From an archaeon (GTDB lineage: Archaea; Nanobdellota; Nanobdellia; Woesearchaeales; GW2011-AR9), in contig JBDRMB010000039.1 of NCBI GenBank assembly GCA_043812455.1, forward strand, positions 12,736-76,735: a stretch of 64,000 nt of DNA. The letters run 5' to 3'. A model generated the notes under the pieces. It was given only the letters and a program-made list of their open reading frames with translations, ran no database searches and had not been told where the DNA came from. The translations under genes and the position numbers were made by a program. Below are positions 50,202 to 63,953 of the stretch, piece by piece; position 1 is the stretch's first letter, and every line of letters starts with the position of its first letter.

Positions 50202-50567
50202 TGTAATAAAACCTCGCTGCTTTTTTGATTGGATATATGTTAACACTACCCCAAAGTAGGCACTCATATATAAATCTTTTGGGTTAATTGTTAACTTAGA
50301 GTAGTAACACTTACTTGGAAAGGAAATGAGGGTTAAATCTTCCCAAACTAGTAATATTTAACTAATATTTTACCCACCCATTTGAAAGCCCAAATCCCCC
50401 ATATCGTTTATTTCGGGCGTTTTCAAGTTTAAGCACGTGATACTTTAAAATGATTTGGAGTGTCTATAAGACATATTCTAATGATATTTTTAGAATTGAA
50501 ATTCCAATCGGAATTAAATTGCAGAAGTTATTATGAAAGTAAGGTGCAATTTTTTGATGACAGATGG

Positions 50568-50600
50568 AGTGTATTTGTCATTACTACAAATCAATAAATA
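50568..50600 (+). promoter_or_regulatory. Promoter with ATTACTACA motif plus TATA-like box (weaker copy A); implies a leaderless mRNA for 50623
   Basis: ATTACTACA at 50580..50588, then AATAAATA at 50593..50600, 23 nt before the ATG at 50623. 20/33 positions match copy B. Confidence 0.45.
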
Positions 50601-50622
50601 ACTTTTATCTATTGAAATTAGC

Positions 50623-51060
50623 ATGGTAAACAAAAAATTAAAATTAGGATTAGTTGCTGCTGGCACTATAACTGTCTTAGCAGCAGGAGCTTATGGCGCA
50701 GTTAAAGGCGGACAAAAAGTTCTTGAAGTAGGTCAAGATATAGTTTATCAATCTGAACTTGAAAATGAAGTTGATAGTTTAAAAAAAGACATTAGCCAAC
50801 TTTATGAAAGTTCGGAAGCAAATCAAGAATACTTAACTAATCTTGATCAAAAGATAAGCAATTCTGAAGAAAATATGTTAGCTCGTGTTGATGGCATTGA
50901 GAGTGGAATGCAAAATGTACAATACAATGTTTCAAATATTGAAGAAGTTCTAACTACAGAAAATGTTAACCATTGTTTAGAGTTTGGAGAATTTGGTGCA
51001 GTTTGTTTAAGCAGTTCTTACATTGATGGAGATAACGTCATTGAAAGAAGAGTTGACTAA
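50623..51060 (+). CDS. Small bitopic membrane protein: N-terminal TM plus coiled coil plus C-terminal Cys pair
   Basis: LKLGLVAAGTITVLAAGAYGAV (TM), a heptad-like ELENEVDSLKKDISQLYES..LDQKISNSEENMLARVDGIESGMQNVQYNVSNIEEVL, then C..C (HCLEFGEFGAVC). Confidence 0.6.
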   Translation: MVNKKLKLGLVAAGTITVLAAGAYGAVKGGQKVLEVGQDIVYQSELENEVDSLKKDISQLYESSEANQEYLTNLDQKISNSEENMLARVDGIESGMQNVQYNVSNIEEVLTTENVNHCLEFGEFGAVCLSSSYIDGDNVIERRVD

Positions 51061-51194
51061 AATGAAACATTTCCATAAACAAATATTATTATTACCATCC
51101 AAAACAAGAACAGGAACAATGTTTGGTGTTTGTAAGAGAATTATGATCAGATCAACAACCTTTCTAGAAGATAACAGAAATATGGCAATTTAAG

Positions 51195-51227
51195 GTTGTT
51201 GTACTTATTACTACACTTGTTTAAATC
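51195..51227 (+). promoter_or_regulatory. Promoter motif copy B (GTTGTT-N6-ATTACTACACTT-N-TTTAAATC)
   Basis: 28/33 ungapped identity with copy C. The TATA-like TTTAAAT is at 51220..51226. It lies about 170 nt upstream of the ATG at 51396. Confidence 0.55.
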
Positions 51228-51395
51228 GTTAATGAGTGTTAATAATGATAAAAAGCTAGATTGAAGTTTTCATAGTTGCCAAAGATCAAGTAATGTGGTG
51301 AAATTCCTACCACTCCCGCAGTGGCAGCCCATTAACTTGGTCGGATAAATTTATTGAAAACTTCTTCTAGCAATTATAATTTGGAGGATTATAAA

Positions 51396-51875
51396 ATGGA
51401 ATTAGTTAAAAATTTAGGCTTGATGGGTGTAGGTGTTGTTATAGGATTAGGAGCGGGATATTTTTTATTCAACGAAAATGTACCAGAAGCAGAAATTGAA
51501 ATCGTCGAACCTAATTTACTCAATTGTAGAGATGTTTACAATGAAAATTTAGCACAACTTGAAGATAAGTATAACCATATTCCTTCTGGAAGCTCCGCAA
51601 CACCAAATGATATTGGTATTGATTACATTATATCAGAAGAAGCTAATTTTAGGGGATTAGTAGTTACAGACAAAGAAACTGGAGAACAGTTGGCAATATC
51701 GTGTAAAAATTCTTTTGGTAATAGAGAAATTGGTCTTGGAAGATATAAAGAAATTACTTTCCTCTTAGGTTCTGCTTATGATGGTAGTTCCATCAAGCCG
51801 GGGCTGGTTGATTATCAATGTTTACAGGATAGTTCTAAATTGGAAGATGTAGTTGATAATGGAAAGAAAAATTAA
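51396..51875 (+). CDS. Small bitopic membrane protein with a Cys-containing ectodomain
   Basis: I prefer ATG at 51396 (GGAGG 8 nt upstream) over the track's TTG at 51354. The TM is LGLMGVGVVIGLGAGYFLF. Three Cys residues (NCRD, SCKN, QCLQ). Confidence 0.6.
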   Translation: MELVKNLGLMGVGVVIGLGAGYFLFNENVPEAEIEIVEPNLLNCRDVYNENLAQLEDKYNHIPSGSSATPNDIGIDYIISEEANFRGLVVTDKETGEQLAISCKNSFGNREIGLGRYKEITFLLGSAYDGSSIKPGLVDYQCLQDSSKLEDVVDNGKKN

Positions 51876-51909
51876 TTATTTCTCCAGTATTTAATTTTTA
51901 TCCTTTTCT

Positions 51910-51942
51910 GTTGTTACACTGATTACTACACTTCTTTATATC
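51910..51942 (+). promoter_or_regulatory. Promoter motif copy C (GTTGTT-N6-ATTACTACACTT-N-TTTATATC)
   Basis: 28/33 identity with copy B at identical internal spacing. The TATA-like TTTATAT is at 51935..51941, about 66 nt before the ATG at 52008, which has a GGAGG SD. Confidence 0.55.
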
Positions 51943-52007
51943 TTTTTTACCACATTAAGAATATGGAATTTCAAAATTAAACGAATATTAACGGAGGAAA
52001 AATACAA

Positions 52008-53450
52008 ATGGTACAACCAAAATATAATCCAAAAATTGACCCTAACATTTTTGATGAGGGATTTGATAACGACTATGGTTTAGATGACAAATTACTTGAC
52101 GATAATCTGAATAAACCATTAGAAGAATATGATTTAGGAAATAAAAAGAGTTCTGCTCAAGGAGAAAGTTTAGAAGGAAATTCATCTTCAAGTCGAGAAC
52201 CAAGACAAGATTACATGGCTATGAGTAGAGGGGAAAGTATTGATAATGTTATTGAGGAACAAGATATTGACAATGACGCTGAACGAAGAGCTGGAAGAAA
52301 AGCAGCGCAAGAAGAAGCTATGATGTATGGTAGTTTAGAAGAAAGTGGTGATGATAACAATTACGGTTCAACAAAAGAAAGGATTAGTGATCTGAAAAAA
52401 AGTGCATATGCACATTTAACTTCAGTTGACACTTCAAACATGACCCACAAACAAAGGGATAGGAATTTGAAATGGGTTGAGTTCAAAAACAGTTTATTTG
52501 AAACCGTTAGTAAAATTGCTGGATATGATGTTGTTGATTCAAAAATAGGTAAAGAAATTGAACACATAAACGAAAAAGTATCTAACTTAGAAAATAAAAT
52601 GTATCAACGAGAGATGAGGTTATATGGAAGAGCATTATCAAAAGGAAACAATAACATTTTATTTGGAGAACACACTGAGCAAGATAAAAATTTAGAAAGA
52701 CTAAAACAGAAACCACAATTCTCTGGACTGAAAGATTATGAACTTAAAAAAGTTGGAGGAAGTTATGTATCTAAAGGTCTTAAAAAAGAATTGTTTGAAG
52801 TTAAAAAACAAAAGAGATTTGTAATTAAAAATATTCTTAAGTTAAGACAAATGATTAATGAAGGACATACAAATATAGCTGATTATAAATCTAAAATGAG
52901 GCATATTGCTGGAGATACTAGATCTCTTTTAGATGATGGACTTAGCCAGGAACTGGATGAATACAGTGCTCTAAGTAGTAAAGCTGAAGAAGATCTGCAC
53001 ATGGCAAATTCAATGTATAATCAAGAGAAAGTACGGCTTAAAAGTTTGAAAGTTAGAGAAAAAAGTATTGAGGATAATGTTTATGGTTTAGAAATTGAAA
53101 TTATGGACATGAGAGAAATGGTTAATGCTGGTAGAATAATCTACGAGAATCTAAAGATCAATGCTGAATACGGAAATTTAGATAGTACATTAAAAATTTT
53201 AGAAGACACTAGCGATCTTAAATCAACAATTGAAAAGCTTGCCGTTCTTGATGCTGACATGAAAAATGAGGTAAGATCAATCAGAAATGATATGTACCAA
53301 AATAACAATAATAACGGAATTGGTCTTTCTCTTGATGTAATTAATCATTCTTCAGCCCAAAATAGACAATCTTTGGAAGAACGAAAATTAAGAGAACAAG
53401 AGCAGATTGATGGAGAAGTTGCTGAATTTCTTGAAGACCTAATTAATTAG
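52008..53450 (+). CDS. Hypothetical cytoplasmic coiled-coil protein (480 aa): acidic disordered N-terminus, amphipathic acidic C-terminus
   Basis: No TM. The N-terminal 130 aa are D/E/N/S-rich. Long helical heptad-like stretches run from about residue 180. The C-terminus is QIDGEVAEFLEDLIN. Confidence 0.65.
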   Translation: MVQPKYNPKIDPNIFDEGFDNDYGLDDKLLDDNLNKPLEEYDLGNKKSSAQGESLEGNSSSSREPRQDYMAMSRGESIDNVIEEQDIDNDAERRAGRKAAQEEAMMYGSLEESGDDNNYGSTKERISDLKKSAYAHLTSVDTSNMTHKQRDRNLKWVEFKNSLFETVSKIAGYDVVDSKIGKEIEHINEKVSNLENKMYQREMRLYGRALSKGNNNILFGEHTEQDKNLERLKQKPQFSGLKDYELKKVGGSYVSKGLKKELFEVKKQKRFVIKNILKLRQMINEGHTNIADYKSKMRHIAGDTRSLLDDGLSQELDEYSALSSKAEEDLHMANSMYNQEKVRLKSLKVREKSIEDNVYGLEIEIMDMREMVNAGRIIYENLKINAEYGNLDSTLKILEDTSDLKSTIEKLAVLDADMKNEVRSIRNDMYQNNNNNGIGLSLDVINHSSAQNRQSLEERKLREQEQIDGEVAEFLEDLIN

Positions 53451-53472
53451 GTCTTATTTTTCTTTTTTAAAA

Positions 53473-55065
53473 ATGGTGCTAGAAAAAATCATTGTAGAAG
53501 AAGACATTGTAAAAAATTATTATTCCAATAAAATTAACTATGAAACGCTATTGAGATATTTAGATAGTACGATTGAGGTCAACTTACCTAAAAGTAATCT
53601 TGGAGATTTGGTAGAAAAGTACAACATACTATTTCTTGGCACTTCACATCTTATAGAAACTGAACTAAAAAACTATGAAGAAAGTAAAACAATTAGCAAC
53701 AACATAAAATTATTATACACTACGTTAATTGCATCACAAGTAGTTTTGAAAGAAATTGAAGATTCTGTTGGTAATGCTGGAAATAATGTTATGATAAGAT
53801 CACAGCAAGAATACCAAGAGATTGATATCAGTTTAAGTAGAAATAATGAAGAAATGAATAAAGCATTTCTAAAAGGCATGGTTGATTCATTAATAAATTC
53901 CAAACCTGCCGGATTAAGAATTATTAAAAATTACTTGAATCAATATTCAAAAAAGGCAAGTAATGTAATTAATAATAATTTAAACAAAGACCAAGCAGAA
54001 ATATTAAAAGAAATTTCTTGGAAGTATAATTTTCACACAATTAGTGGAAACTTCAAAAGTAAAGAGGAATTAAATAAACGGAATGATCAAAAAAAAGGAA
54101 TTCAAAATTCTGACCCATTACTTAAAGGTCTTAAAGATTATATTTTAGAAGAACCGGTTTCAAGACAAGATATAGTAGGAAACGAGGATATTATTGATTT
54201 GATTGAAACGGAAGTTGCTTGTTTAATGCATTATGACCCTGTTGATAAAAGTAACTTATATCAAGGATTTAATCAATTTGTCATGCTTGCTGGTCGTCGT
54301 GGTACTGGTAAAACAATGATGGCAATGTATGGCTTGACCATTGGAAAATCACTTTCTGACAAATATAACAAAGATTTATCAATAATTGAACTTGATTTTG
54401 AGGACAGATGGCAATGTGGACCTGAATTAAACATTAGAGCGCAGTTAGAAGAAGTTAGTAAAAGTAACAAACCTTACATCGTATTTATTGATGAAATTGA
54501 TACTAAAATACCTACACGTACAGAATCAGGAAAAGATTCACAAAAAGCAGTAATTGGAGAAATTTTGAAATTTAGAGGTGGTGTTTACCTTAATAAAAAT
54601 AACTATTTAGTTTTAGCTACAACAAACAGACCAAATGATGTAGATATAGCTTTAAGAAATAAATTTGAGATCCTAGAAGTTCCTGGTCCTAAAAATGGGA
54701 AAGAAAGAACTGAAATTCTTTACAAACGTATGCAAAAAGGAATTGAAAGGGGCTATGTTCAGATTAATGATTGGTCTAATATCAAAAATATTCTTGAGAA
54801 ATACCTATTTACGGGAAGAGATTTAGTTAATATTTCTTCCCGAGCAGAAAGGAAGTTTAGAAAAAGCGCTAAGAGATTCAGATGCGACCATACAACTACG
54901 GAAGGTAAACAAGTTGTTCAACAGATTATTCAAAGTTCTGATTATGATTATATTACTACTGACAAAGATCTTATATCCTCAATAATGTATGAAGTACAAA
55001 AGGAAAAAATTGAACAAACTGATTTTTTGAAACAAGACAGGTACATTCGAAATGTCACTAATTAG
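53473..55065 (+). CDS. Classical-clade AAA ATPase with an about 270-aa helical N-terminal domain (Vps4/meiotic-clade-like SRH)
   Basis: DIVGNEDIIDLIETEV, Walker A GRRGTGKT, Walker B PYIVFIDEIDT, and LVLATTNRPNDVDIALRNKFEILEVPGP. Confidence 0.8.
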   Translation: MVLEKIIVEEDIVKNYYSNKINYETLLRYLDSTIEVNLPKSNLGDLVEKYNILFLGTSHLIETELKNYEESKTISNNIKLLYTTLIASQVVLKEIEDSVGNAGNNVMIRSQQEYQEIDISLSRNNEEMNKAFLKGMVDSLINSKPAGLRIIKNYLNQYSKKASNVINNNLNKDQAEILKEISWKYNFHTISGNFKSKEELNKRNDQKKGIQNSDPLLKGLKDYILEEPVSRQDIVGNEDIIDLIETEVACLMHYDPVDKSNLYQGFNQFVMLAGRRGTGKTMMAMYGLTIGKSLSDKYNKDLSIIELDFEDRWQCGPELNIRAQLEEVSKSNKPYIVFIDEIDTKIPTRTESGKDSQKAVIGEILKFRGGVYLNKNNYLVLATTNRPNDVDIALRNKFEILEVPGPKNGKERTEILYKRMQKGIERGYVQINDWSNIKNILEKYLFTGRDLVNISSRAERKFRKSAKRFRCDHTTTEGKQVVQQIIQSSDYDYITTDKDLISSIMYEVQKEKIEQTDFLKQDRYIRNVTN

Positions 55066-55124
55066 TGCTGTAAAAAAGGAAAAGGAAAAACTATTGAAAG
55101 AACTCTATGGGCGGGTGAGATAAA

Positions 55125-56843
55125 ATGGCTAAGGAAAAGAAAAGAAGAATGTTTTTGGAAAAGGACGATTTTCAAAGTGATATCTTCAAAGGTCTTTATG
55201 ATAAGTATTTTGGATATCTTGTTCCTGACGAACCTGTTGAAGAAAAACAGGATAATAATAATAATAATAATGATGATGATGATGATAATTATCATAGAAA
55301 CTATCAAAATAGAAATTTAAGAGATGATAAAAGCAAAAAAGTTGAAACACGAAAAGTTCCTGAATTGGATGATTTATTATATGAAAATGAAAGAGAAAAA
55401 GAAGTTAAGGTTATTGAACTTTTTCCTGGAAAAAAAGAAAGTAAATTAAAACTTGATGAAGGATTAAGTAAAGAAAATATTTTTGATGAATTTGATGCTG
55501 AAGTATCAGAAGATTTCCGGAAAGATTCGTTACAACAAAAGGTATCAGAACCACAAATTGTTTCTAAACAATATTTGCTAAATGATATTTTTTCAGAATT
55601 ATTACAGTATTATAAAGCCAATGATGTTAATAATAATGAAAGTATACCTGTCCTTGAAGAAGATGCTAATTGTTTACTAGCAACAGTAGCGGCTGCTTCA
55701 AAACATTCATTATTGATTGAAGGGAAAGCTCGAACTGGTAAATCATTAATCCTAGATCAAATGACTGAATTGTTAACTTCAGTATATTCAATAAAAAATT
55801 GTTCAAACAAATCATTTTTTGGAAGTGCTGATGAAATCAACAAAAATGATTTTTTGTACATTTCAGAATTTCAATCGGCAGTTCAAGGTAATCCCGTAGT
55901 AAAAGAAATTCTTAAGATGGTCACTGAGAATAAAGATGCAACTCATGATAGTAAAGGGATGAGAACAACCCTTTGTGGAAATTTAACTGTGTTAAGTACC
56001 GGCGCTGATGAGAACATATTGACCCAAAAAAGAGATGTTGAAGTTTCAGGCAGATTCATAATTTTAAAGACAAGATCTGACTTAGAAAAAACTAAAAAAA
56101 TTTGTGATTATCAAGACGGGCTGAAAGATGGGACTATTGAAGATGTTATGTTTTCAAAAGATAGGTTTGATAATCTAAAAAATCATATCAACCAAACTGT
56201 TGAAGAAAAGGGGTTTCGTTCAGAAAATCCGTTCATCAGATCATTCTCAGAAAATCTACCACAAACACAAAAATCTGTATATTATAGAACTTTATATCAC
56301 TCATTAATTGACGCTTTTACTAAGTTTGACAGGCAAAACAGGTTAAAGAAAGAAAATGGTAAGTTTCTGACTAACATTATTGATATTTATCTTGTCAACA
56401 CATTATATCATAAAACTTATTGCCAAACATTGAAACGGTTAGCAGCAATGAGTTATGAGGCTATTGAAAGAACGTTAAGTGAAGTAGAAAAAGAAGATCA
56501 GAAAAAAGAATACGAGCAAGAGATTTCATTAATAGAAGAAGTTGAAAATAAAAATACTAACTGGCAGAAGATATGGAACGGTGCTTATGAACATATGGCA
56601 AAGAACAATCCTCAACTGCTTAACCAGTGGGTAGCTTCTCAGTCTAAAGAAGGGAAAATTATAGTTTATAATCCTGTGAAAAAAGTTGATGTGTATTTGT
56701 GCGAAGCTGAACCAATCTCTATAAAAGAATATTCAGAGGTTGATAAGGTAAATACAAACTCTTTGGAATCTGAAGAACTTAATCGTTATGAAATAATTAC
56801 AGATCCAAGAAGGTTACTGCCCGAACCAAAAATTATAAATTGA
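55125..56843 (+). CDS. Uncharacterised P-loop NTPase (572 aa)
   Basis: Walker A LLIEGKARTGKS, candidate Walker B DFLYISEF, LTVLSTGAD, and VSGRFIILKT. Low-complexity N-terminus (NNNNNNDDDDDN). Helical C-terminal half. Confidence 0.65.
   Translation: MAKEKKRRMFLEKDDFQSDIFKGLYDKYFGYLVPDEPVEEKQDNNNNNNDDDDDNYHRNYQNRNLRDDKSKKVETRKVPELDDLLYENEREKEVKVIELFPGKKESKLKLDEGLSKENIFDEFDAEVSEDFRKDSLQQKVSEPQIVSKQYLLNDIFSELLQYYKANDVNNNESIPVLEEDANCLLATVAAASKHSLLIEGKARTGKSLILDQMTELLTSVYSIKNCSNKSFFGSADEINKNDFLYISEFQSAVQGNPVVKEILKMVTENKDATHDSKGMRTTLCGNLTVLSTGADENILTQKRDVEVSGRFIILKTRSDLEKTKKICDYQDGLKDGTIEDVMFSKDRFDNLKNHINQTVEEKGFRSENPFIRSFSENLPQTQKSVYYRTLYHSLIDAFTKFDRQNRLKKENGKFLTNIIDIYLVNTLYHKTYCQTLKRLAAMSYEAIERTLSEVEKEDQKKEYEQEISLIEEVENKNTNWQKIWNGAYEHMAKNNPQLLNQWVASQSKEGKIIVYNPVKKVDVYLCEAEPISIKEYSEVDKVNTNSLESEELNRYEIITDPRRLLPEPKIIN
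55251..55289 (+). repeat. In-frame trinucleotide microsatellite GAT(AAT)6(GAT)5AAT
   Basis: Read directly from the sequence; it encodes DNNNNNNDDDDDN in ORF 55125..56843. Confidence 0.9.
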
Positions 56844-56858
56844 TGAGGTTTTTAAAAA

Positions 56859-58535
56859 ATGATAAGAAATCAGAGATTATATGATAGATTTGAAGATAAA
56901 ATTAATGAAGAAATTAATATTGCAGTAAATCCTTCTTCAATCCCCTTGCCTTTTTCTTTAGAAAAAATTTTGCCCTTAATGTATAATTCTAAAGAAAAAG
57001 TTCATGAACTACAATCTGAATTAAGTAATAACAAAAGTTATTCTTTAGAAAATATCTGTGAAATTCACAATTTTTTACAGCCTTTAGAGAATAACATCCA
57101 TAATATAATAAATTCTGGCCAAGAATCATATTTACTCCTAATTGCAAAAGTGATTGATATTGGAGATAAGTTTGATCGCATAATCGAAAATAAGTTTAGA
57201 GAATTAGAAGTATCTTTTGATAAAAACAAAAACTCAAATTCTAACAAAAATAAAAGATTAAGTTTGGTTTTTGACCAATATATTACCTTAGATAAAATTA
57301 GCCAAAAAAGAGATTTAACTTTTCTACCACCTCCAAAAATTAAACAGAAATTTGATGGTTATAAAAAAAGAATTGAAGAATTTAAAAGAGTTGATATTGA
57401 TATCAAGAAATTAATTGATGGATATCAAAACCTTAAAACCCCGGAAGAGATAAAAAAATATGTAAATGATAAATCTGAAGATTTGAAAAGTCATGGAATT
57501 ACTTTTAATAACAATCTAATACAAAGAGCTATTAATTTGCAATATCGGGAAGCTATAAGCGTTCTTGAAGATTTGAGAAATGATTTTAAGAACACTAGTG
57601 ATAAAGCAGAAAATTTTATTGCTTACAGAGCTCGTATATCTTCTGACATTAGAAAAATTAAAGCATATAAAGATAAAATTGATTCTCTAGAAGTTGATAA
57701 ATTAAATCTTTTTGATAAATTGATAATCGCTAAGAACCTGGAAAATCTTGATTCAAAAAAGTATAATTCTGCTAGAAGAAATTTGTTTCTTTCCGGAAGT
57801 ATTGATTTATATGGACAAAATGTCAAAGAATTGAAAGACTCTGGTAAATATTTGTTAACGAAAGATTTTCTTAGAAAAATTGATAATTACGGAATTCAAC
57901 TAAAGAATAGTTCTTTAGATAGTTCTTTAGATAATTCAAAAGAAAAAGAAATTTATCAAACTATTTCTGTCATTGATGAGAAGATAAAATCTTTTGAAGA
58001 TTTTGTTAAAGCGGGAATTAGATATAATAATGATGATGATTCAGAACAGTTAGAAAAATATGGCGAAGAGTTTAGTGAATTTTACAGAAAAGCAGAAGAG
58101 TTAAATCTGAGTAAGGTATGCACTTACCTTACTGGAACTAAAAAAGTTTTAGATTTTTATCTGAAAAGATGTATGCCTGAAATTGATAAAATACTGGAAG
58201 AAAATTATGAATTTAGTTCAGATGAAGAGTTAGGCCACAATAACTGTGATAAGATACATGAAAAATTTAAGCAGTTATATGAAGGGAAAATAAAGATTGG
58301 TTCTAAAGAAGACTTATTCAATATGACATATAAATCCCGCAATATTGTAACTGATAGAAAATTAGCTGATATATGTTCAACTATTTCTGGTTTTTATGGA
58401 GATGAAAGAGTTTTCAAAGGTTCAATGGAGATTAGGGTTGAAGAAACCAAAAGACATTTTCCTTTGGAAGGGCTGGAAAATGGAGATTTAGTTCTTTACA
58501 ATTCTATTGTAGAAGCTGTCGATTGTTTGTTTTGA
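56859..58535 (+). CDS. Hypothetical large helical protein (558 aa), Asn/Lys-rich
   Basis: Long ORF starting 15 nt after the previous gene, with GAGGT upstream. No TM and no recognisable motif. Confidence 0.6.
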   Translation: MIRNQRLYDRFEDKINEEINIAVNPSSIPLPFSLEKILPLMYNSKEKVHELQSELSNNKSYSLENICEIHNFLQPLENNIHNIINSGQESYLLLIAKVIDIGDKFDRIIENKFRELEVSFDKNKNSNSNKNKRLSLVFDQYITLDKISQKRDLTFLPPPKIKQKFDGYKKRIEEFKRVDIDIKKLIDGYQNLKTPEEIKKYVNDKSEDLKSHGITFNNNLIQRAINLQYREAISVLEDLRNDFKNTSDKAENFIAYRARISSDIRKIKAYKDKIDSLEVDKLNLFDKLIIAKNLENLDSKKYNSARRNLFLSGSIDLYGQNVKELKDSGKYLLTKDFLRKIDNYGIQLKNSSLDSSLDNSKEKEIYQTISVIDEKIKSFEDFVKAGIRYNNDDDSEQLEKYGEEFSEFYRKAEELNLSKVCTYLTGTKKVLDFYLKRCMPEIDKILEENYEFSSDEELGHNNCDKIHEKFKQLYEGKIKIGSKEDLFNMTYKSRNIVTDRKLADICSTISGFYGDERVFKGSMEIRVEETKRHFPLEGLENGDLVLYNSIVEAVDCLF

Positions 58536-58551
58536 TTTTTAATATCAAAAA

Positions 58552-60756
58552 TTACTGGTTAACCCAACCACAAGACCCTTTCTTTTTAATTGATGAAATT
58601 TTATTACCATTAGGACAATTACAATTATACAACAAGTCACCATCATCTTCCAAAAAATAAACTCCTTTATCATTATCACCTTTACAACGAATGTTATTTT
58701 CATTATCAAAATAAAAATTATTTATAATATTTAAACCAAACTCAGGATGTAAACTATATAATCTTTCTCTTAAGAAATAATCATGTGATGGCTTAAAAAC
58801 TTCCCAATGTGTAGAACTATCTTTTAGAATATTATAATAATCAGAGCCATTGATATCCTTATCATGAAATGTTAAATTATTATTTCTATCAATTTTGTAC
58901 ACACCAGAACTCCCATCATCATAATTCATTATATTTCCATCTTTATTCAAATAAAAATCTTCTATAACAACATCTGCTAACCTAGGATGCAAATTATGAA
59001 TTTGTTTCCTTAATTCAATTTCTGCTGGAGTTGGTTCTTGGGATGGCAGTTCTAGAGACTTTTGCTCAGGATCAATTTCAACATTATAATTACTGGTTTC
59101 TTGTGTGATTTCTTCTTGGCCAGTATTGTTAATAAGTTGTTTTGGAATCACTTCTTCTGTCTTTTGATCATCAAACAATTCACCCTTATGTTCTACCATA
59201 TATTTTGTTACAAAGCCCCCAGATATTATCCCTGTAGCAACTGTTGTTAAAAGAGCTATTGTTTTCCAGTCAAATATTAGAGTGAATTCCTTAACAGCAC
59301 TTATTTTCTGTTGTAATCCCCATATTGCAGATTCTATTCCTTCCTCACAGAAATTATATACTCTTCTCCCCTGGTTACTTATTCCATTGAAACAATCGTT
59401 AATTAATATTTTTGCATAATTCTTCTTACTTATCTCTTTTTCAGAAATTATTTTTTCTCTTAACCAATCAAGTGAAAAATCTTGTTTTTCAATTTGACCA
59501 ATATTTTTTTTTGTATTTTGTGGTAAAGGAAAATTATTTATTTGGTTAGAATAAAAAAGTATTTCTTCACCACAATTATAATTAGGTAATTTTATGATAT
59601 AATTTTTAATTTCATCAGGAATTTGGGGTCCATCACTACCAAAGATACTAATTTCTTGTGGTGATGGGTCTGTAGTGACTTCCAATTCAAGATTAATTTC
59701 CTTTAAATCGTCAATAAAGTCTTGAGCTTCCTGATAACGTTCATCTTTCCCAGAAGTTCCTTTGATGATAATATCTACTAATTTTTCAGCATTTTCATCA
59801 GAATAATTTTTATCATCTTTTCTATCACCATCTAATGATTCTAATAAAGATTCCCTTAAGTGATTTAAATCTTTTTTATTTTGCACTTCTTTTGCTTTAT
59901 TTATCCAATACTGGCTTAATCTTCCAGTAAGCATCAGACATAAATTATTTGCCATGAAATAAGTGTCAATTGAAGGTTCTGCTTTTTCGTATGATTCAAT
60001 ATCTGGAGAAGAGTAGATAACATTAAAAATACCTCTATTTCCAGAAGTATAATATGTGTTTGATACAGGTCCTGCAACAGATTTATTAAATAAGTGCCTG
60101 ATATCTTCACCTTTAGATCTTGCAATGCCAAAATCGTTCACGAGGAATATGTTTCTATCTATCACTATTATATTCGCTGGAGAAAGATCTCCATGTATAA
60201 TACCTGAACAAATTGGCGTCTTAAAATTGTGAAAGAATTTTACTTGTTTAAGAATACTTTCTGTTAAATTGACTACTTTATCTAATTTTAATATCTTATA
60301 ATTATTTGCTTTAATTTCCTCTGGTTTCACATTATTCCTTTTCGAATAATCGGGTAATTCAATAATTTCTTCAAGAGTTTGGAAATAAGCATGACCTCTT
60401 GATAAATCTTTAAATAATAAACCCATTCTTCCATCAATCTCCATTGAACCTAAATATTCTCTTTTCCCAAATTCAGCAAGGATTTGGTTATGATCCATTT
60501 TAGATGAATATTCTTTGATAGTATCCTCTACTGACATTTCATTTAAAAGGAGAGTTATAGAAGTAGGTCCTGGACATGTTATATTGTTGCTATGAGTTTT
60601 CCAAAACATTCTTTCTCTTCCTAGTTCAATAAAAAATCTACTAGATAAGCTACCTACACTTCTTCCTTCGGATAGGATGTGTACTTCTCTTCCATCTCTT
60701 GTAACTTTTTTCACTGAATTATAATCTTTTTTCCTTGACATTACAATGCCCCCCAC
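58552..60756 (-). CDS. Transmembrane Hanks-type Ser/Thr protein kinase with a duplicated extracellular C-terminal module
   Basis: Catalytic loop IIHGDLSPANIIV, then NDFGIARS, then SIDTYFMANNLCLMLTG. TM is WKTIALLTTVATGIISGGFV. The ectodomain repeats are LHPRLADVVIEDFYLNKDGNI..GVYKIDRNNNL and LHPEFGLNIINNFYFDNENNI..GVYFLEDDGDL. The start is GTG at 60756 or ATG at 60741 (TAATG overlap). Confidence 0.8.
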   Translation of the reverse strand: MGGIVMSRKKDYNSVKKVTRDGREVHILSEGRSVGSLSSRFFIELGRERMFWKTHSNNITCPGPTSITLLLNEMSVEDTIKEYSSKMDHNQILAEFGKREYLGSMEIDGRMGLLFKDLSRGHAYFQTLEEIIELPDYSKRNNVKPEEIKANNYKILKLDKVVNLTESILKQVKFFHNFKTPICSGIIHGDLSPANIIVIDRNIFLVNDFGIARSKGEDIRHLFNKSVAGPVSNTYYTSGNRGIFNVIYSSPDIESYEKAEPSIDTYFMANNLCLMLTGRLSQYWINKAKEVQNKKDLNHLRESLLESLDGDRKDDKNYSDENAEKLVDIIIKGTSGKDERYQEAQDFIDDLKEINLELEVTTDPSPQEISIFGSDGPQIPDEIKNYIIKLPNYNCGEEILFYSNQINNFPLPQNTKKNIGQIEKQDFSLDWLREKIISEKEISKKNYAKILINDCFNGISNQGRRVYNFCEEGIESAIWGLQQKISAVKEFTLIFDWKTIALLTTVATGIISGGFVTKYMVEHKGELFDDQKTEEVIPKQLINNTGQEEITQETSNYNVEIDPEQKSLELPSQEPTPAEIELRKQIHNLHPRLADVVIEDFYLNKDGNIMNYDDGSSGVYKIDRNNNLTFHDKDINGSDYYNILKDSSTHWEVFKPSHDYFLRERLYSLHPEFGLNIINNFYFDNENNIRCKGDNDKGVYFLEDDGDLLYNCNCPNGNKISSIKKKGSCGWVNQ

Positions 60757-61907
60757 CCATTATCATTTAGTAAGAATTCATACAAAGAATCGGATGCAGA
60801 ATTGTCATCGTCTGTTGGATATTCTGTTGGTGTTTCTGAATCTCTTCCTATTTCTGATCCTTCAGGTTTAGGTTGTACTAATTGATCACCAACAGAACTA
60901 GATTTATCTATACACTTAATATTAACATCACCATCATTTTTACAAAGTAGATTTTCATTAATTGCTGGCCTTGAATAACCGTCAGCCATTCTAACTGTTA
61001 CTCCATCAATCGTATCTCTTTTAGTAACTAAACAACCATAATCTGTGGCATTTTCACTATAACCCTGATTAACCAAGTTATTGATAGCATCCATAAATTT
61101 AGAACTATCAGCATTACCACAAAGATTAGAAGTTGCGTAGTTTTTTATAGTTGTGGGATTTGAATCTGATGATGATGTATTATTACTTTGATCATTTAAT
61201 ATTGACTCTCCAACTGAATCAATGGAAATATTAGGATCAGTCATAAAATCATTTGTTTGATTAGTAGAATAATTATCAGAACCAACATTATCAATTAAAT
61301 GAGGCAATTTATTTGAAGGGGGGTTTATGATAATCTTGTGATGAACACTATCATCCCATTGAAAACAGTGTAATCTAAATTCTAAATTAATAGGCTCATT
61401 AATTGCAGGAGTATTTAAAAAATCATATATGTTGAATGATTTTTCATAAATACCTTCATCAAAGAAAATAATCTTTTCTTCTCCATCCTTACCATCAATC
61501 GAATAATCTAAAATGCAAGATTCAATATTTTCACTTATTCTAATTTTAAATTCGTGGTTTTCATTGTTTTTATCATAATGTATTGACTCTGATCCTTCAA
61601 AATCATAATTAACCTTTTCTATAATTTCATTATTAACATGATTTGATTCAACATTATTTGAATCTTTACAAAAATAATAACTTAGAAGACTTCCTGAAAT
61701 CAGACTTAATAACGCGATTCCAAATCCGGAAATTGCTGCTTTTTTTTCCCCAATAGAATTTGTTTCTAACTCATCAAATCTGGCTTTGACATTGTTTCTC
61801 TGATTAATTATAGTATTTACATCTTTTCTAAGATTTCTAACTTCCTCTTCAGAAAATAATATTAATTTTTCAGATTTTTTTGGATTTTCCCGTTCAGTCA
61901 TATTCAT
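60741..61907 (-). CDS. Bitopic membrane protein: cytoplasmic coiled coil, TM, ectodomain carrying the Cys domain shared with ORF 47297..48946
   Basis: TM is AAISGFGIALLSLISGSLLSYYF. CGNADSSKFMDAINNLVNQGYS..DGVTVRMADGYSRPA matches the 549-aa protein. Confidence 0.65.
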   Translation of the reverse strand: MNMTERENPKKSEKLILFSEEEVRNLRKDVNTIINQRNNVKARFDELETNSIGEKKAAISGFGIALLSLISGSLLSYYFCKDSNNVESNHVNNEIIEKVNYDFEGSESIHYDKNNENHEFKIRISENIESCILDYSIDGKDGEEKIIFFDEGIYEKSFNIYDFLNTPAINEPINLEFRLHCFQWDDSVHHKIIINPPSNKLPHLIDNVGSDNYSTNQTNDFMTDPNISIDSVGESILNDQSNNTSSSDSNPTTIKNYATSNLCGNADSSKFMDAINNLVNQGYSENATDYGCLVTKRDTIDGVTVRMADGYSRPAINENLLCKNDGDVNIKCIDKSSSVGDQLVQPKPEGSEIGRDSETPTEYPTDDDNSASDSLYEFLLNDNGWGAL

Positions 61908-61931
61908 TACTCACTAAATAGATTAAATTAA

Positions 61932-63953
61932 TTAAGGCATAAATCTTTTATATTTTGACCATTGGTTATTTTTATCATTTTCAATGTCATTGAATAATGC
62001 TTCTTTGTCTTTAGATGAAGTAACGTACTCTATAAATTCTTCAGATTCATCTATGGTTGTTGTGATCTCTCTTTCATTTTCCTCAACTGCTTGTACTAAA
62101 TCACTATTTTGTGCATTATTTTGTAGCGAATCTCTTAACTGTTCATTTTCTGATTCTAAACTTAGCTTTTGTTCATTTTCATTTTGTAATTCAGAATATA
62201 GTTTTTTTATTTCTAATTCCTTTTCTTGTAATTGTTTGTCTTTTTCTTCACAATCAATTTCATACTGAGAATTTTTTTTGCTTAATCTCTCAATTAAATT
62301 TTTTGCTTCAAACAAATTATTGCTATTCTTATTTTTTACATTTTCTAATTCAGTTTCTAAATAAATTATCTTTTTGTTATTATCTGTGCGTGTTTCTGAT
62401 AATCTATTTTTTTCAATAACAAAATTTTCAATAACGGAATTCAAATCATCAATTATTATATTATATCCTTTACACAATTTATCAACTTCTGAATATTCTC
62501 TTTCTTTATTAGAAAGCTTTTCTTCAAAATCTACCCTTTTTTGCTTTTCAGAATCTAATTCTATAGCAAAATTTTCAATTACAGAATTCAAATCATCAAT
62601 TATTATACTATATCCTTTACACAATTTATCAACTTCTGAATATTCTCTTTCTTTATTAGAAAGCTTTTCTTCAAAATCTACCTTTTTTTGCTTTTCAGAA
62701 TCTAATTCTATAGCTAATTTCTCAAGTTCTTTTTTTTTTGTTTTATTTAAATTAAAAATTTTGTTTAACCAACTATTCTCAGATTCATTACATCTTTTTT
62801 CTAATGATTCATATTTGTTATTTAAGTGGTTGATTTTTTTATGCATCTCATCAACCTCATTTTGATATTGTTTAATTTCTTCTTTTTTATTATTAAGAAC
62901 TTCAATTATCTCTTCTTTTTCATCAAATAAAATACTTAACTTTGATTCTAACTCAGAATTTGCTTTATGTAAGTAATCTTTTTCTTTTTGTAAATTAGGT
63001 ATCTTTTTAACTTCTTTCTCTAATTCGGGGATTTTGTTGTCTTTTAAATCCTTTATTTCTATAATATTTTTTTTAACTGAATCTTCTAAATCAATAAACA
63101 TTATTGTAGTGTCGTCATACTTCAATCTTCTTAAATCAATATTTTCTAACAATTGGTCATCATTTCTTTTTATATAAGAATCTAAGGCATCATCAACTAA
63201 TTCTTCAATTGATTGATAATCGTTTTGATGTAAGGAGGTTCTTAAAAGGATTTTTCTTTTTAATTCATCAATAGAACCTATCTCTAACATTTTTTTTCTT
63301 GGGAGGTTAATCTCGTCTTCTATCTCTCTTAACTTTCCAAAATAATTTAAGGACTTATCTAACAAAATACTGTTTAGATGTTCTTTACTTATTCTAGAAT
63401 CAACACCATCAGAATGTATCATAATAAAGGATGGTTTTTCTTCGCTAAAATCAAATTCACGATAATTTATCCTTTCTTCAATTTCCCTACCATCAATATC
63501 ATCAACTCCAACATAATTTGTAGGTCCATAACTCCCTTTACTTTCATTTTTTACAACATCATCAACTATTTTATCATCATAAACAAAAATAATACTACAA
63601 TCGCCTAAATGACCAACATAAGCTCTATTCTCTCTAACTATTAATAATGATAAAGTCGAATGTGCTGAACCTAGATTTGCTAAAGGGGTATTAACTTTAA
63701 CTATCGCATCTCTAATTATGGATTGATAATCTTTTATTTCTTCGTTCTTTAATCTAAATTCTAATTCATCACCAACCTTATTAACAATCATGTGGCTTGC
63801 GATACTTCCTCTTTCCATATCATCGCTACATCCATCTGCTACCATAAATAATCCACAATCTTTGCCGTTGATATCTTTAATTATAGAGTTATAATGTGAA
63901 TCTTCATTATAATCATGGGTTCTTCCCGGTTTTTCAGTAACATAAGCTTCCAT
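61932..63953 (-). CDS. PP2C-family Ser/Thr phosphatase fused to an about 430-aa coiled coil
   Basis: NEDSHY, LFMVADGCSDDMERGSIAS, YVGHLGDCSII, FIMIHSDGV, YDDTTIMFIDL. After these come continuous heptad-like E/K/L/N-rich sequence that includes a 49-aa tandem duplication. Confidence 0.8.
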   Translation of the reverse strand: MEAYVTEKPGRTHDYNEDSHYNSIIKDINGKDCGLFMVADGCSDDMERGSIASHMIVNKVGDELEFRLKNEEIKDYQSIIRDAIVKVNTPLANLGSAHSTLSLLIVRENRAYVGHLGDCSIIFVYDDKIVDDVVKNESKGSYGPTNYVGVDDIDGREIEERINYREFDFSEEKPSFIMIHSDGVDSRISKEHLNSILLDKSLNYFGKLREIEDEINLPRKKMLEIGSIDELKRKILLRTSLHQNDYQSIEELVDDALDSYIKRNDDQLLENIDLRRLKYDDTTIMFIDLEDSVKKNIIEIKDLKDNKIPELEKEVKKIPNLQKEKDYLHKANSELESKLSILFDEKEEIIEVLNNKKEEIKQYQNEVDEMHKKINHLNNKYESLEKRCNESENSWLNKIFNLNKTKKKELEKLAIELDSEKQKKVDFEEKLSNKEREYSEVDKLCKGYSIIIDDLNSVIENFAIELDSEKQKRVDFEEKLSNKEREYSEVDKLCKGYNIIIDDLNSVIENFVIEKNRLSETRTDNNKKIIYLETELENVKNKNSNNLFEAKNLIERLSKKNSQYEIDCEEKDKQLQEKELEIKKLYSELQNENEQKLSLESENEQLRDSLQNNAQNSDLVQAVEENEREITTTIDESEEFIEYVTSSKDKEALFNDIENDKNNQWSKYKRFMP
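62421..62714 (-). repeat. Near-perfect 147-bp tandem duplication (2 copies) inside the PP2C coiled-coil region
   Basis: 62421..62567 versus 62568..62714 differ at about 4 positions. Each copy encodes AIELDSEKQK(K/R)VDFEEKLSNKEREYSEVDKLCKGY(S/N)IIIDDLNSVIENF. Confidence 0.9.

What the first reader, a model, noticed from the sequence alone, without database searches (positions are those of the whole stretch)
50268..63953. Candidate undescribed envelope-associated machine: two ATPases, coiled-coil and bitopic membrane proteins, and a kinase/PP2C pair
From 50.3 to 64.0 kb no gene can be assigned beyond fold level, yet the organisation is highly ordered. The + strand series 50623..58535 encodes two small N-anchored membrane proteins, a 480-aa coiled-coil protein, a classical AAA ATPase, a second P-loop NTPase and a 558-aa helical protein. 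The last four genes are separated by only 15-60 nt. Converging on this series is the triad 63953..58552: PP2C fused to a coiled coil, a bitopic membrane protein, and a transmembrane Ser/Thr kinase with an ectodomain. Diverging from the series is the adhesin operon 50201..42740. Together the two arms contain five bitopic membrane proteins, two NTPases and a reversible-phosphorylation pair. This logic recalls phosphorylation-gated bacterial envelope machines such as PpkA/PppA control of T6SS or the EssB pseudokinase in T7SSb. However, I can recognise no component of any known archaeal or bacterial secretion, pilus, archaellum or division system. For a probable episymbiotic small-genome archaeon, a host-contact or transfer apparatus is an attractive interpretation, but that is inference.
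Basis: partly seen in the sequence, partly recalled or inferred. Interest (0 to 1): 0.82.

Follow-up and report, generated by a model that had tools for sequence, protein, structure and literature searches.

The report
Orphan multi-AAA+ cassette with kinase/phosphatase
A small group of DPANN (Woesearchaeota-like) archaea carries a conserved block of four cytoplasmic genes: two different AAA+ ATPases and two fast-evolving helical proteins of unknown family, which is often next to a membrane Ser/Thr kinase, a PP2C phosphatase and surface proteins, so it looks like a surface-signal-controlled protein-remodelling system rather than a secretion machine.

Summary
All nine ORFs, their spacing, the convergent and divergent layout and the fold-level calls (classical AAA, second P-loop, Hanks-type kinase, PP2C plus coiled coil) are confirmed. 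No library (Pfam, NCBIfam, PHROGs, PADLOC, PDB sequences) names them further.

New findings:
- The order g3-like / classical AAA / g5 / g6-like recurs in 15 non-redundant loci, with GC from 30 to 50%.
- g5 is a conserved AAA+ ATPase whose model matches the MCM, MoxR and Mg-chelatase ATPase domains. It lacks the MCM N-domain.
- g6 is an all-alpha protein with no structural match.
- Five relatives insert a MoxR-like ATPase and an HExxH-vWA protein between the AAA gene and g5. Two g6 homologues carry a transglutaminase-like domain.
- A kinase/PP2C pair lies beside the core in five lineages, once in a different arrangement with a non-orthologous pair.

The four core proteins have no membrane segment, and no secretion, pilus or division component is present.

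My best reading (confidence 0.4) is a cytoplasmic multi-AAA+ remodelling module wired to surface sensing. It is thematically closest to the MoxR-vWA "ternary" systems and the actinobacterial Esr pathway. The window's copy fails their membership tests.

I rate it a new variant of a known kind, of moderate interest.

The parts
52008..53450 (+). g3: 480-aa soluble protein with a disordered Ser-rich N-terminus and an alpha-helical/coiled-coil body. It is the first gene of the conserved core and evolves fast.
   Evidence: There is no family in any library. hhalign against the family at the same position in L001, L006, L007 and L009 gives 85% probability over 334 collinear columns. A ~370-515-aa helical protein sits at this position in all 15 loci.
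53473..55065 (+). g4: 530-aa classical-clade AAA ATPase. It has a ~260-aa orphan helical N-domain and one active AAA module, and is a predicted protein unfoldase/remodeller.
   Evidence: PF00004 at 6e-16 over residues 270-400. Cdc48/p97/Vps4 are the best PDB sequence hits. NCBIfam gives CDC48, CdvC and PAN far below their cut-offs. Walker A, Walker B, the sensor-1 Asn and an aromatic pore-loop residue are conserved in 14 homologues. The N-domain matches nothing.
55125..56843 (+). g5: 572-aa AAA+ ATPase of a new family and the best-conserved gene of the system. It has a short N-terminal helix motif, a ~120-aa disordered linker, an AAA+ core with a pre-sensor-1 hairpin, and a helical plus beta-hairpin C-domain with invariant Trp residues.
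   Evidence: Homologues share 42-57% identity. The AF2 core has pLDDT above 90. Foldseek matches MCM ATPase domains at E 8e-9 to 5e-7, and RavA and BchI at 4-5e-7. No Pfam, NCBIfam or PDB sequence match passes threshold. Invariant residues are GKS, E248, N297 and R310.
56859..58535 (+). g6: 558-aa all-alpha elongated protein of a new family and the last gene of the core.
   Evidence: There are only 18 representatives among 1.84 billion proteins. The AF2 model is all helices, with residues 1-440 mostly at pLDDT 70-95 apart from short dips near 213-217 and 350-358. Foldseek against the PDB finds no hit at E <= 0.001. The homologues in L006 and L007 carry a Transglut_core insert.
50623..51060 (+). 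g1: 145-aa N-anchored protein with a coiled coil. It is an accessory gene, with one detectable homologue (L020).
   Evidence: Only coiled-coil noise appears in Pfam.
51354..51875 (+). g2: 173-aa N-anchored protein with a small Cys-containing ectodomain. It is an accessory gene.
   Evidence: The membrane segment is at residues 21-39. Homologues lie upstream of the core in L003 (two copies), L009 and L020.
58552..60756 (-). g7: 734-aa bitopic Hanks-type Ser/Thr kinase that converges on g6. The cytoplasmic kinase domain (~1-360) is conserved and the ~210-aa ectodomain is variable.
   Evidence: Pkinase at 4e-6, phrog_2361 at 8.5e-16 and PknB-type at 3.9e-9. The Lys, HGD..N and DFG motifs are present. 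Orthologues in L003, L009 and L020 align only over the kinase part, and up to residue 552 for L020.
60741..61907 (-). g8: 388-aa bitopic orphan protein between the phosphatase and the kinase. Its ectodomain shares a Cys-rich module with the 549-aa surface protein at 47297-48946.
   Evidence: The membrane segment is at residues 57-75. BLASTP gives 48% identity over 98 aa at E 9e-24. The position, but not the sequence, is conserved in L003, L009 and L020.
61932..63953 (-). g9: 673-aa PP2C phosphatase fused to a long coiled coil, and the first gene of the g9-g8-g7 operon.
   Evidence: PP2C_2 at 2.4e-12 over residues 30-193. Orthologues are present in L003, L009 and L020. A 147-nt tandem duplication lies at 62412-62725.
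42740..50267 (-). Divergent operon of four surface or membrane proteins (426, 549, 1017 and 446 aa). It is a possible sensor/adhesin arm, and its link to the core is not established.
   Evidence: He_PIG, Big_9, PKD, DUF4625 and NPCBM_assoc domains. Homologues of the 1017-aa protein flank the core in L003 and L020, and a homologue of the 549-aa protein does so in L020 only.

Best explanation
The conserved unit is a cytoplasmic four-gene cassette, g3-g6.
- g4 is a classical AAA ATPase that probably threads or unfolds protein substrates through an aromatic pore loop.
- g5 is a second, much better conserved AAA+ ATPase of the pre-sensor-1-hairpin group. Its fold is closest to the MCM, MoxR and Mg-chelatase ATPase domains.
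- g3 and g6 are two lineage-specific, fast-evolving all-alpha proteins that serve as scaffolds, adaptors or substrates.

I infer that the two ATPases assemble and disassemble a complex built from g3 and g6. In this window and its nearer relatives, I infer that the cycle is switched by reversible Ser/Thr phosphorylation from the adjacent operon. That operon encodes the PP2C g9, the bitopic g8 and the transmembrane kinase g7. The variable ectodomains of g7 and g8, with g1, g2 and perhaps the neighbouring Ig-like surface proteins, would sense an event at the cell surface such as host or partner contact, or attack.

In logic this is the same kind of device as the MoxR-vWA 'ternary' systems and the actinobacterial Esr pathway: surface sensor, then kinase/phosphatase, then an AAA+-driven response.

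What is shown and what is inferred:
- Shown: the gene families, the predicted folds, the conservation of gene order, the intact catalytic motifs and the modular gain and loss of partner genes.
- Inferred: the physical complex, phosphorylation as the switch, the nature of the signal and the output.
For: - The core order is conserved in 15 non-redundant loci whose GC ranges from 30 to 50%.
- g5 shares 42-57% identity across loci, against 20-28% for g4 and g6 and near-undetectable similarity for g3. This is the pattern of a conserved engine with diversifying partners.
- The ATPase motifs are intact in both ATPases.
- g5's fold matches the MCM, RavA and BchI ATPase domains.
- g6 is an all-alpha orphan.
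- Related cassettes insert a MoxR-like AAA_5 ATPase and an HExxH plus DxSxS-MIDAS vWA protein exactly between g4 and g5. Others fuse a transglutaminase-like domain into g6.
- L001 adds JAB and E1 genes.
- A kinase and a PP2C sit next to the core in the window, L003, L009 and L020 (orthologous, convergent). In L006 a non-orthologous pair is co-directional.
- The kinase ectodomains are not conserved while the kinase domains are.
- g8 shares an ectodomain module with a protein of the divergent surface operon.
- The N-terminal peptide motif of g5 co-varies with the type of g3-like protein: 10 of 10 and 4 of 5 loci.
- The thematic precedent comes from PMC7159879 and bioRxiv 10.64898/2026.09.08.750141.
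Against: - No experiment and no interaction prediction supports a complex.
- The kinase/PP2C operon is a separate, convergent transcription unit. It is absent from about half of the loci (L001, L007, L008, L018, L021), which carry a TrmB-like regulator or unrelated genes instead.
- The four convergent cases are close together in the g5 tree, so they may reflect inherited synteny rather than a functional link.
- No FHA or other phospho-reader is present.
- The window copy lacks MoxR, vWA and the transglutaminase-like domain, so the analogy rests partly on relatives.
- In g4 of the window and L020, a family-conserved Arg in the 'RF' motif is replaced by Lys.
- Adhesin-like genes are common in this genome, for example 38196-40859 and perhaps the unexamined 2201-aa ORF at 4056-10661. 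Their adjacency may therefore be chance.
Confidence: 0.4

Rival explanations
1. Independent neighbours. The g3-g6 cassette is a self-contained cytoplasmic chaperone or proteostasis/assembly module, for example for maturation or turnover of some lineage-specific complex. The kinase/PP2C operon and the adhesin operon are functionally unrelated genes that are merely syntenic in one sub-clade.
For: - The core occurs without a kinase, PP2C or adhesins in L001, L007, L008, L018 and L021.
- The three arms are separate transcription units.
- The four convergent kinase cases cluster in the g5 tree.
- MoxR-vWA pairs are classically dedicated maturation chaperones (PMC7159879).
Against: - L006 has a different, non-orthologous PP2C and kinase pair in another arrangement near the core.
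- L013 and L021 also have kinases within 5-10 kb.
- g8 and the divergent operon share an ectodomain module.
- By a rough estimate of my own, a kinase would be expected within 10 kb of a given locus in about 10% of cases in a ~1-Mb genome. That is well below what is seen here. This is inference, not computed.
Confidence: 0.25
2. The two arms together build an envelope-spanning host-contact, secretion or transfer apparatus energised by the two ATPases and gated by phosphorylation.
For: - Five single-pass membrane proteins and large Ig-like surface proteins lie around the ATPases.
- g1 and g2 homologues lie upstream of the core in L003, L009 and L020.
- The organism is a DPANN-type archaeon, as shown by archaeal markers and Woesearchaeota-labelled relatives.
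Against: - None of the universally conserved proteins has a membrane segment or signal peptide.
- There is no polytopic channel and no secretion-type ATPase (VirB4, FtsK, HerA, PilT or SecA). There is no pilin or secretin and no T6SS or T7SS family.
- Classical AAA and MCM/MoxR-like AAA+ proteins are not known translocation motors for envelope machines (established knowledge).
- Most loci lack the membrane-protein arms.
Confidence: 0.1
3. A cytoskeletal or membrane-remodelling system. g3 and/or g6 polymerise into filaments or coats, and the Vps4/katanin-like AAA g4 disassembles them, analogous to ESCRT-III/Vps4 or NSF/SNARE.
For: - g4's hits include Vps4 and CdvC over residues 116-436.
- g3 and g6 are long helical and coiled-coil proteins.
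- g6's best Foldseek hit, although not significant, is the Munc13 MUN tethering domain.
Against: - No Snf7, CdvA, CdvB or PspA family is detected in any g3- or g6-position protein.
- The CdvC score is 36 bits against a 650-bit cut-off.
- The MUN hit has E 0.076 and TM 0.13.
- The idea does not explain g5, the MoxR-vWA insert or the peptidase domains.
Confidence: 0.1
4. A replication or mobile-element module. g5 would be an MCM-like helicase of an integrated plasmid or virus.
For: - The best structural matches of g5 are MCM ATPase domains, and some viral MCM-like, SF3 and primase-helicase models match weakly.
- GC is slightly lower at 56-64 kb.
Against: - There is no MCM N-domain and no PF00493 hit.
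- There are no relatives in phage or plasmid records or in IMG/VR.
- No integrase, tRNA or repeat boundary was detected: there is no tRNA or Rfam family in the whole window, and no integrase family among the 30 ORFs put to Pfam.
- The C-domain is acidic and the hairpin tip is polar.
- The partner genes are chaperone and peptidase types.
Confidence: 0.04

Closest known systems
MoxR-vWA-centric 'ternary' conflict systems, especially the FtsH-containing subtype (Kaur, Burroughs, Iyer & Aravind 2020, eLife; PMC7159879)
   Same: - Several AAA+ ATPases of different clades sit in one operon.
- A classical-clade AAA is combined with lineage-specific all-alpha proteins 'found nowhere else'.
- A conserved ATPase is paired with rapidly diverging partners.
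- Peptidase, kinase and Ubl modules are swapped in and out.
- Relatives of the window cassette (L001, L007, L010, L018, L022) do contain a MoxR-like ATPase and a MIDAS vWA protein, and L001 adds JAB and E1.
   Different: - The window cassette has no MoxR and no vWA gene.
- g5 is a separate AAA+ family (hhalign 11% against the cassette MoxR-like family).
- g4 matches Cdc48/Vps4 better than FtsH and shows no inactive N-terminal AAA domain.
- No EAD or effector domains are recognised.
- The hosts are tiny DPANN archaea, not multicellular bacteria.
Esr (epibiont sensing and response) pathway of Actinomycetales (bioRxiv 10.64898/2026.09.08.750141) and the related bifidobacterial PFNA cluster (PMC8430577)
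   Same: The gene neighbourhood combines Ig-repeat surface proteins, a Ser/Thr kinase and a phosphatase, AAA+ ATPase(s) and, in some relatives, a transglutaminase-like domain and MoxR plus vWA. The proposed logic is also the same: a surface sensor, then a kinase/phosphatase, then a cytoplasmic response.
   Different: - There is no FHA protein and no beta-propeller sensor, and the window has no MoxR, vWA or transglutaminase.
- The transglutaminase-like domain of relatives is embedded in the cytoplasmic g6, not in a surface-linking enzyme.
- The core proteins g3, g5 and g6 have no counterpart in Esr.
- The organism here would be the epibiont side rather than the host side.
MCM / MoxR (RavA) / Mg-chelatase BchI AAA+ ATPase domains
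   Same: The g5 model superposes on their ATPase plus lid modules (Foldseek E 8e-9 to 5e-7, about 340 aligned columns). Walker A, Walker B (E248), sensor-1 Asn and an 'xGRF' arginine-finger-like motif are arranged as in these families.
   Different: - Sequence identity is 10-15%, and no sequence-profile hit passes threshold.
- There is no MCM N-terminal OB/Zn domain.
- No clear helix-2 insert appears in the predicted secondary structure.
- The N-terminal peptide plus disordered linker and the Trp-rich C-domain are unique.
PpkA/PppA-Fha control of T6SS, and EssB in T7SSb
   Same: A transmembrane Hanks-type kinase and a PP2C phosphatase lie adjacent to a multi-protein, ATPase-containing gene cluster.
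   Different: No structural T6SS or T7SS component, no FHA protein and no ClpV- or EssC-type ATPase is present. The conserved proteins are all soluble.

Membership tests
MoxR-vWA ternary system, FtsH subtype (PMC7159879) | MoxR-clade AAA+ ATPase gene in the operon | tested here: not met
   No AAA_5 or MoxR hit appears among the window genes. g5 is related only at fold level, and hhalign of g5 against the cassette MoxR-like family gives 11%. The feature is present in the relatives L001, L007, L010, L018 and L022 (AAA_5 at 2e-6 to 2e-5).
MoxR-vWA ternary system, FtsH subtype (PMC7159879) | vWA (MIDAS) protein paired with MoxR | tested here: not met
   The feature is absent from the window. In relatives the partner has invariant HExxH and DxSxS motifs, but only weak VWA and VWA_2 Pfam hits.
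MoxR-vWA ternary system, FtsH subtype (PMC7159879) | Classical AAA protein with an inactive N-terminal and an active C-terminal FtsH-type AAA domain | tested here: inconclusive
   g4 has one active classical AAA domain at residues 266-460. Its N-half shows no profile similarity to its C-half or to any PDB chain. Its best relatives are Cdc48, Vps4 and PAN, and FtsH is weaker. No structure model of g4 was made.
MoxR-vWA ternary system, FtsH subtype (PMC7159879) | Ubl conjugation set (E1, E2-Ubl, E3, JAB) or NEFF1/radical-SAM effectors | tested here: not met
   The window has none. Only L001 has Prok-JAB and ThiF downstream.
Esr pathway (bioRxiv 10.64898/2026.09.08.750141) | Ser/Thr kinase plus phosphatase in the cluster | tested here: met
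   g7 carries the kinase motifs, and g9 matches PP2C_2 at 2.4e-12.
Esr pathway (bioRxiv 10.64898/2026.09.08.750141) | Filamentous Ig-repeat surface sensor with a terminal beta-propeller (EsrA) | tested here: inconclusive
   The neighbouring 1017-aa protein has He_PIG, Big_9 and PKD domains, but no beta-propeller family was detected. Its link to the core is unproven.
Esr pathway (bioRxiv 10.64898/2026.09.08.750141) | MoxR, vWA and transglutaminase (EsrD) genes | tested here: not met
   All three are absent from the window. Transglut_core is found only inside the g6 homologues of L006 and L007.
Esr pathway (bioRxiv 10.64898/2026.09.08.750141) | FHA-domain phospho-reader (EsrG) | tested here: not met
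   No FHA hit appears in the window genes or in the kinase-operon neighbours of L003, L009 and L020.
MCM replicative helicase | N-terminal OB-fold/Zn domain and a PF00493 MCM sequence signature | tested here: not met
   Residues 34-152 of g5 are disordered and there is no N-domain. There is no MCM Pfam hit. Only the ATPase fold matches.
Phosphorylation-gated T6SS (PpkA/PppA/Fha) or T7SSb (EssB/EssC) | Structural secretion components and the cognate ATPase (ClpV, or EssC/EccC of the FtsK type) | tested here: not met
   No such family is found in Pfam, NCBIfam or PADLOC for any gene between 48987 and 63953.
Cdv/ESCRT system | ESCRT-III (Snf7/CdvB) subunits plus a Vps4/CdvC with an MIT domain | tested here: not met
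   No Snf7 or CdvA/CdvB hit is found in the g3- or g6-position proteins of the loci scanned (15 g3-position and 6 g6-position proteins). g4 scores 36.5 bits against the 650-bit CdvC cut-off.

The most novel reading that the evidence does not exclude
g3-g6, with the g9-g8-g7 operon, g1, g2 and the divergent surface-protein operon, form a DPANN-specific contact-responsive machine with no described counterpart. Ectodomains would detect host or partner contact, the kinase/PP2C pair would set the phosphorylation state of the disordered regions of g3 and g5, and two unrelated AAA+ motors would then build or dismantle an all-alpha scaffold at the contact site. This would be the symbiont-side counterpart of host systems such as Esr.
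Probability: 0.15. Interest if true: 0.8.

Novelty: new variant of a known kind. Interest (0 to 1): 0.5.

Why it matters
DPANN archaea depend on contact with other cells, yet almost nothing is known about how they sense or regulate that contact, and most of their lineage-specific genes are unannotated.

This locus defines at least two new protein families: the g5 AAA+ ATPase and its all-alpha partner g6, probably along with the fast-evolving g3-like group. It also gives them a reproducible genomic context with two other ATPase types, peptidase-like domains and a transmembrane kinase/phosphatase pair. That makes it a concrete, testable candidate for signal-controlled protein remodelling in these organisms.

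It also extends the 'several AAA+ ATPases plus diversifying helical partners' architecture, so far described mainly in multicellular bacteria, to very small archaeal genomes. If the link to surface sensing is wrong, what remains is still a well-defined orphan multi-AAA+ cassette.

Tried and rejected
- Library scans. Pfam, PHROGs, PADLOC and NCBIfam scans of all ten proteins gave only AAA, kinase and PP2C calls plus coiled-coil noise. The PADLOC hits (TRIP13 for g4, PD-T4-6 for g7) are generic AAA and kinase similarity.
- PDB sequence searches. Single-sequence and profile searches for g5, g6 and the g4 N-domain found nothing significant.
- Word-indexed homologue searches for g6. The single sequence and the six-sequence profile both returned only the query itself, which wasted two of the three searches. 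The exhaustive representative search then found 18 family members.
- Tandem-duplication idea. I tested whether g5/g6 could be a duplicate of MoxR/vWA, or whether g3 is related to g6. hhalign probabilities were at most 30% and mostly below 12%, so I rejected this.
- Inactive N-terminal AAA domain in g4, as in FtsH-ternary proteins. Profile comparison does not support it.
- Mobile-element or viral origin. There were no hits in phage or plasmid records or in IMG/VR, and no tRNA or Rfam element in the window.
- Fetching DNA beyond the window end through exact-protein look-up failed, because the proteins are not on record.
- FHA or other reader domains in the kinase-operon neighbours of related loci: none found.
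- ESCRT-III or other known filament families in the g3-position proteins: none found.

Full report
**Context.** The window is a low-GC (about 32%) archaeal chromosome segment. It carries fibrillarin, FEN1, Trm5/Tyw2, GluRS, split transketolase and a PyrB-PyrI fusion. There is no tRNA or Rfam element. One gene of the target region is on record as 'MAG: hypothetical protein ABIG93_05320 [archaeon]' on a 103-kb contig. Relatives of the locus lie in MAGs labelled archaeon or Candidatus Woesearchaeota. A DPANN-type host is therefore plausible.

**Checking the observation.** The ORFs sit at the stated coordinates.
- The + strand series is g1 (145 aa), g2 (173 aa), g3 (480 aa), g4 (530 aa), g5 (572 aa) and g6 (558 aa). 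The g3-g4, g4-g5 and g5-g6 gaps are 22, 59 and 15 nt.
- g6 converges on g7 with 16 nt between the stop codons. The g9-g8-g7 genes are packed, with a 24-nt gap and a 16-nt overlap.
- g4 is a classical AAA: PF00004 at 6e-16, with Cdc48, p97 and Vps4 as the best solved relatives.
- g7 is a Hanks-type kinase. Pkinase scores 4e-6, just under the gathering score, and phrog_2361 scores 8.5e-16. The Lys, HGD..N and DFG motifs are intact.
- g9 is a PP2C (2.4e-12) fused to a coiled coil.
- Nothing else reaches any family threshold in Pfam, NCBIfam, PHROGs or PADLOC.
- Hydropathy gives one hydrophobic segment each in g1, g2, g7, g8 and the 426-aa protein, and none in g3-g6 or g9.

**Conservation.** g5 has only about 20 homologues in the 5.8-billion-protein index, and all are unnamed. 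Pattern scans found it in 6 of 185,579 species genomes and in 9 JGI metagenome contigs. These counts are lower bounds, because only two peptide patterns were used. Together with exact-protein look-ups, this gave 15 non-redundant loci with GC from 0.30 to 0.50.
- Every locus with enough flank shows the same order: a 370-515-aa helical protein, a classical AAA of about 520-560 aa, g5, and a g6-like protein.
- g5 is 42-57% identical across loci. g4 is only about 25% identical and g6 20-28%.
- The g3-position proteins fall into at least three groups that are barely or not at all alignable. The window g3 links to one group by hhalign at 85% over 334 collinear columns.
- The cassette therefore has a conserved engine and diversifying partners.

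**What the parts are.**
- g5. An AlphaFold2 model from 19 sequences has a confident core at residues 153-530 (pLDDT above 90), preceded by a short helix and a ~120-residue disordered linker. Foldseek against the PDB returns MCM ATPase domains (E 8e-9 to 5e-7, about 340 columns), followed by RavA (MoxR) and BchI.
- g5 motifs. Invariant GKS, E248, N297 and R310 fit Walker A, Walker B, sensor 1 and an arginine finger. The predicted strand order shows a hairpin before sensor 1. g5 has no MCM N-domain, and the C-domain is acidic. I therefore place g5 in the pre-sensor-1-hairpin AAA+ group near MCM, MoxR and the chelatases, as a new family. I cannot say from this whether it acts on protein or DNA. 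The polar hairpin tip and the chaperone-type neighbours favour protein (inference).
- g6. The exhaustive search of 1.84 billion representatives found 18 family members. A model from 16 of them is all-helical and confident over most of residues 1-440. It has no significant structural match; the best is the Munc13 MUN domain at E 0.076.
- g4. The family keeps Walker A, Walker B, the sensor Asn and an aromatic pore-loop residue. This is consistent with a substrate-threading unfoldase. Its ~260-residue N-domain matches nothing.

**Variable additions in relatives.**
- Five loci (L001, L007, L010, L018, L022) insert two genes between the AAA and g5. One is an AAA_5/MoxR-like ATPase. The other is a protein with invariant HExxH and a DxSxS MIDAS motif, that is, a metallopeptidase-like domain plus vWA.
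- The g6 homologues of L006 and L007 contain a transglutaminase-like core (PF01841 at 1e-10).
- L001 continues with Prok-JAB and ThiF/E1 genes.
- A 46-64% identical TrmB-like regulator lies beside the cassette in six loci, but not in the window.
- Kinase and PP2C genes lie convergent to g6 in the window, L003, L009 and L020. These are orthologous in their cytoplasmic domains, with unrelated ectodomains. In L006 a non-orthologous PP2C and kinase pair lies co-directionally about 2 kb downstream.
- On a simple NJ tree of g5, the kinase-linked and MoxR-containing types are interleaved. No branch support was computed.

**Links between the arms in the window.**
- g8 (residues 240-337) shares a Cys-rich module, 48% identical at E 9e-24, with the 549-aa N-anchored protein of the divergent operon.
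- g2 homologues precede the core in L003 (two copies), L009 and L020, and g1 has a homologue in L020.
- The N-terminal peptide of g5 comes in two forms, 'EDFxSxFGK...FG' and 'RYKTRNLFxPNAGPPD'. These track the type of g3-like protein in 10 of 10 and 4 of 5 loci. This hints that the peptide docks on a cassette-specific partner, although shared ancestry could give the same pattern.

**Mechanism.** I commit to the following, at about 0.4 confidence. g3-g6 form a cytoplasmic, two-motor protein-remodelling module. In the window's lineage it is controlled by the transmembrane kinase g7 and the PP2C g9, which respond to an extracellular cue read by variable ectodomains. The gene content, folds, motif integrity and neighbourhood conservation are shown. 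The complex, the phospho-switch, the cue and the output are inferred.

**Rivals.**
- Unrelated neighbours (0.25).
- A filament and disassembly system (0.1).
- A mobile replication module (0.04). This last is disfavoured by the absence of relatives in phage, plasmid or IMG/VR data and of any integrase or tRNA.

**Comparison with what is known.** The literature search led to the MoxR-vWA 'ternary' systems of Kaur et al. (PMC7159879). Their FtsH subtype combines a classical AAA, MoxR, a divergent vWA, unique all-alpha proteins and a Ubl/JAB/E1 set. The search also led to the Esr pathway of oral Actinobacteria, which has an Ig-repeat surface sensor, MoxR, vWA, a transglutaminase, a kinase, a phosphatase and an FHA protein.
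- The six-gene relatives, above all L001, resemble the FtsH subtype in theme. The window's neighbourhood resembles Esr in theme.
- Membership fails for the window. It has no MoxR, no vWA, no transglutaminase, no FHA and no Ubl genes. g4 is not demonstrably a double-AAA FtsH type.
- g3, g5 and g6 have no counterpart in either system. I found no paper that describes this cassette, though the paper library is incomplete.

**Verdict.** This is a real, conserved, undescribed gene cassette. It is a new variant of the multi-AAA+, kinase-linked sensing and response theme rather than an envelope machine. Interest is moderate (0.5). It defines new families and a testable hypothesis in poorly understood organisms, but the function remains inferred and the family is narrow.

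Noticed in passing
window 62412-62725 (inside g9, - strand): A 147-nt tandem duplication (2.1 copies, 94% identical) duplicates a 49-aa coiled-coil segment of the PP2C protein. It is recent and in frame (and the translation).
   Followed up: partly
window 60741-61907 (g8) and 47297-48946 (549-aa protein): The two proteins share a ~95-aa Cys-rich ectodomain module (48% identity, E 9e-24). A related module is also present in the L020 441-aa protein. The domain has no family.
   Followed up: partly
window 41278-42171 (+): A 297-aa protein has a RelA/SpoT nucleotidyltransferase domain (PF04607 at 5.5e-11). This would be a small alarmone-synthetase-like gene in a DPANN-type archaeon.
   Followed up: no
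window 20500-22041 (+): The aspartate carbamoyltransferase catalytic (OTCace_N/OTCace) and regulatory (PyrI/PyrI_C) chains are fused in one 513-aa ORF.
   Followed up: no
window 4056-10661 (-): A giant 2201-aa ORF, which I did not examine. It is probably another surface protein.
   Followed up: no
L001 14521-15246 (-); L018 7407-8138; L008 8690-9304; L017 2078-2827; L006 13412-14188; L007 11245-11778: A well-conserved (46-64% identity) TrmB-family protein of about 240 aa lies next to the cassette in six loci. It could be a dedicated regulator or a synteny marker. There is none in the window.
   Followed up: partly
L001 8413-10008, L007 5186-6913, L010 8038-9657, L018 650-2287, L022 8294-9940: The partner of the MoxR-like ATPase combines an invariant N-terminal HExxH motif with a C-terminal DxSxS MIDAS vWA domain. 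Pfam barely detects it.
   Followed up: partly
g5 N-termini, window 55125-55230 and homologues: Two alternative N-terminal peptide motifs of g5 co-vary with the type of g3-like protein in the same cassette. This may be a docking peptide.
   Followed up: partly
window 58180-58260 (g6 residues ~441-470) versus L006 and L007: In the MAFFT alignment, the window g6 aligns 'ENYEFSSDEE' with the start of the transglutaminase-like insert of L006 and L007 ('NIxYxSD'), but lacks the GDCED catalytic Cys region. This may be a remnant of a lost domain. The model confidence is low in this region.
   Followed up: no
L007, L008, L009 (GenBank CAZFSZ01, CAZPXC01, CAZRZP01): The contigs that carry the cassette are labelled 'uncultured Methanosarcinales archaeon'. 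The other carriers are labelled archaeon or Woesearchaeota. I did not check the label.
   Followed up: no
window 22076-23056 (-): A 326-aa P-loop protein has weak DUF815 and Zot hits next to the Trm5 gene. It is unrelated to the finding.
   Followed up: no
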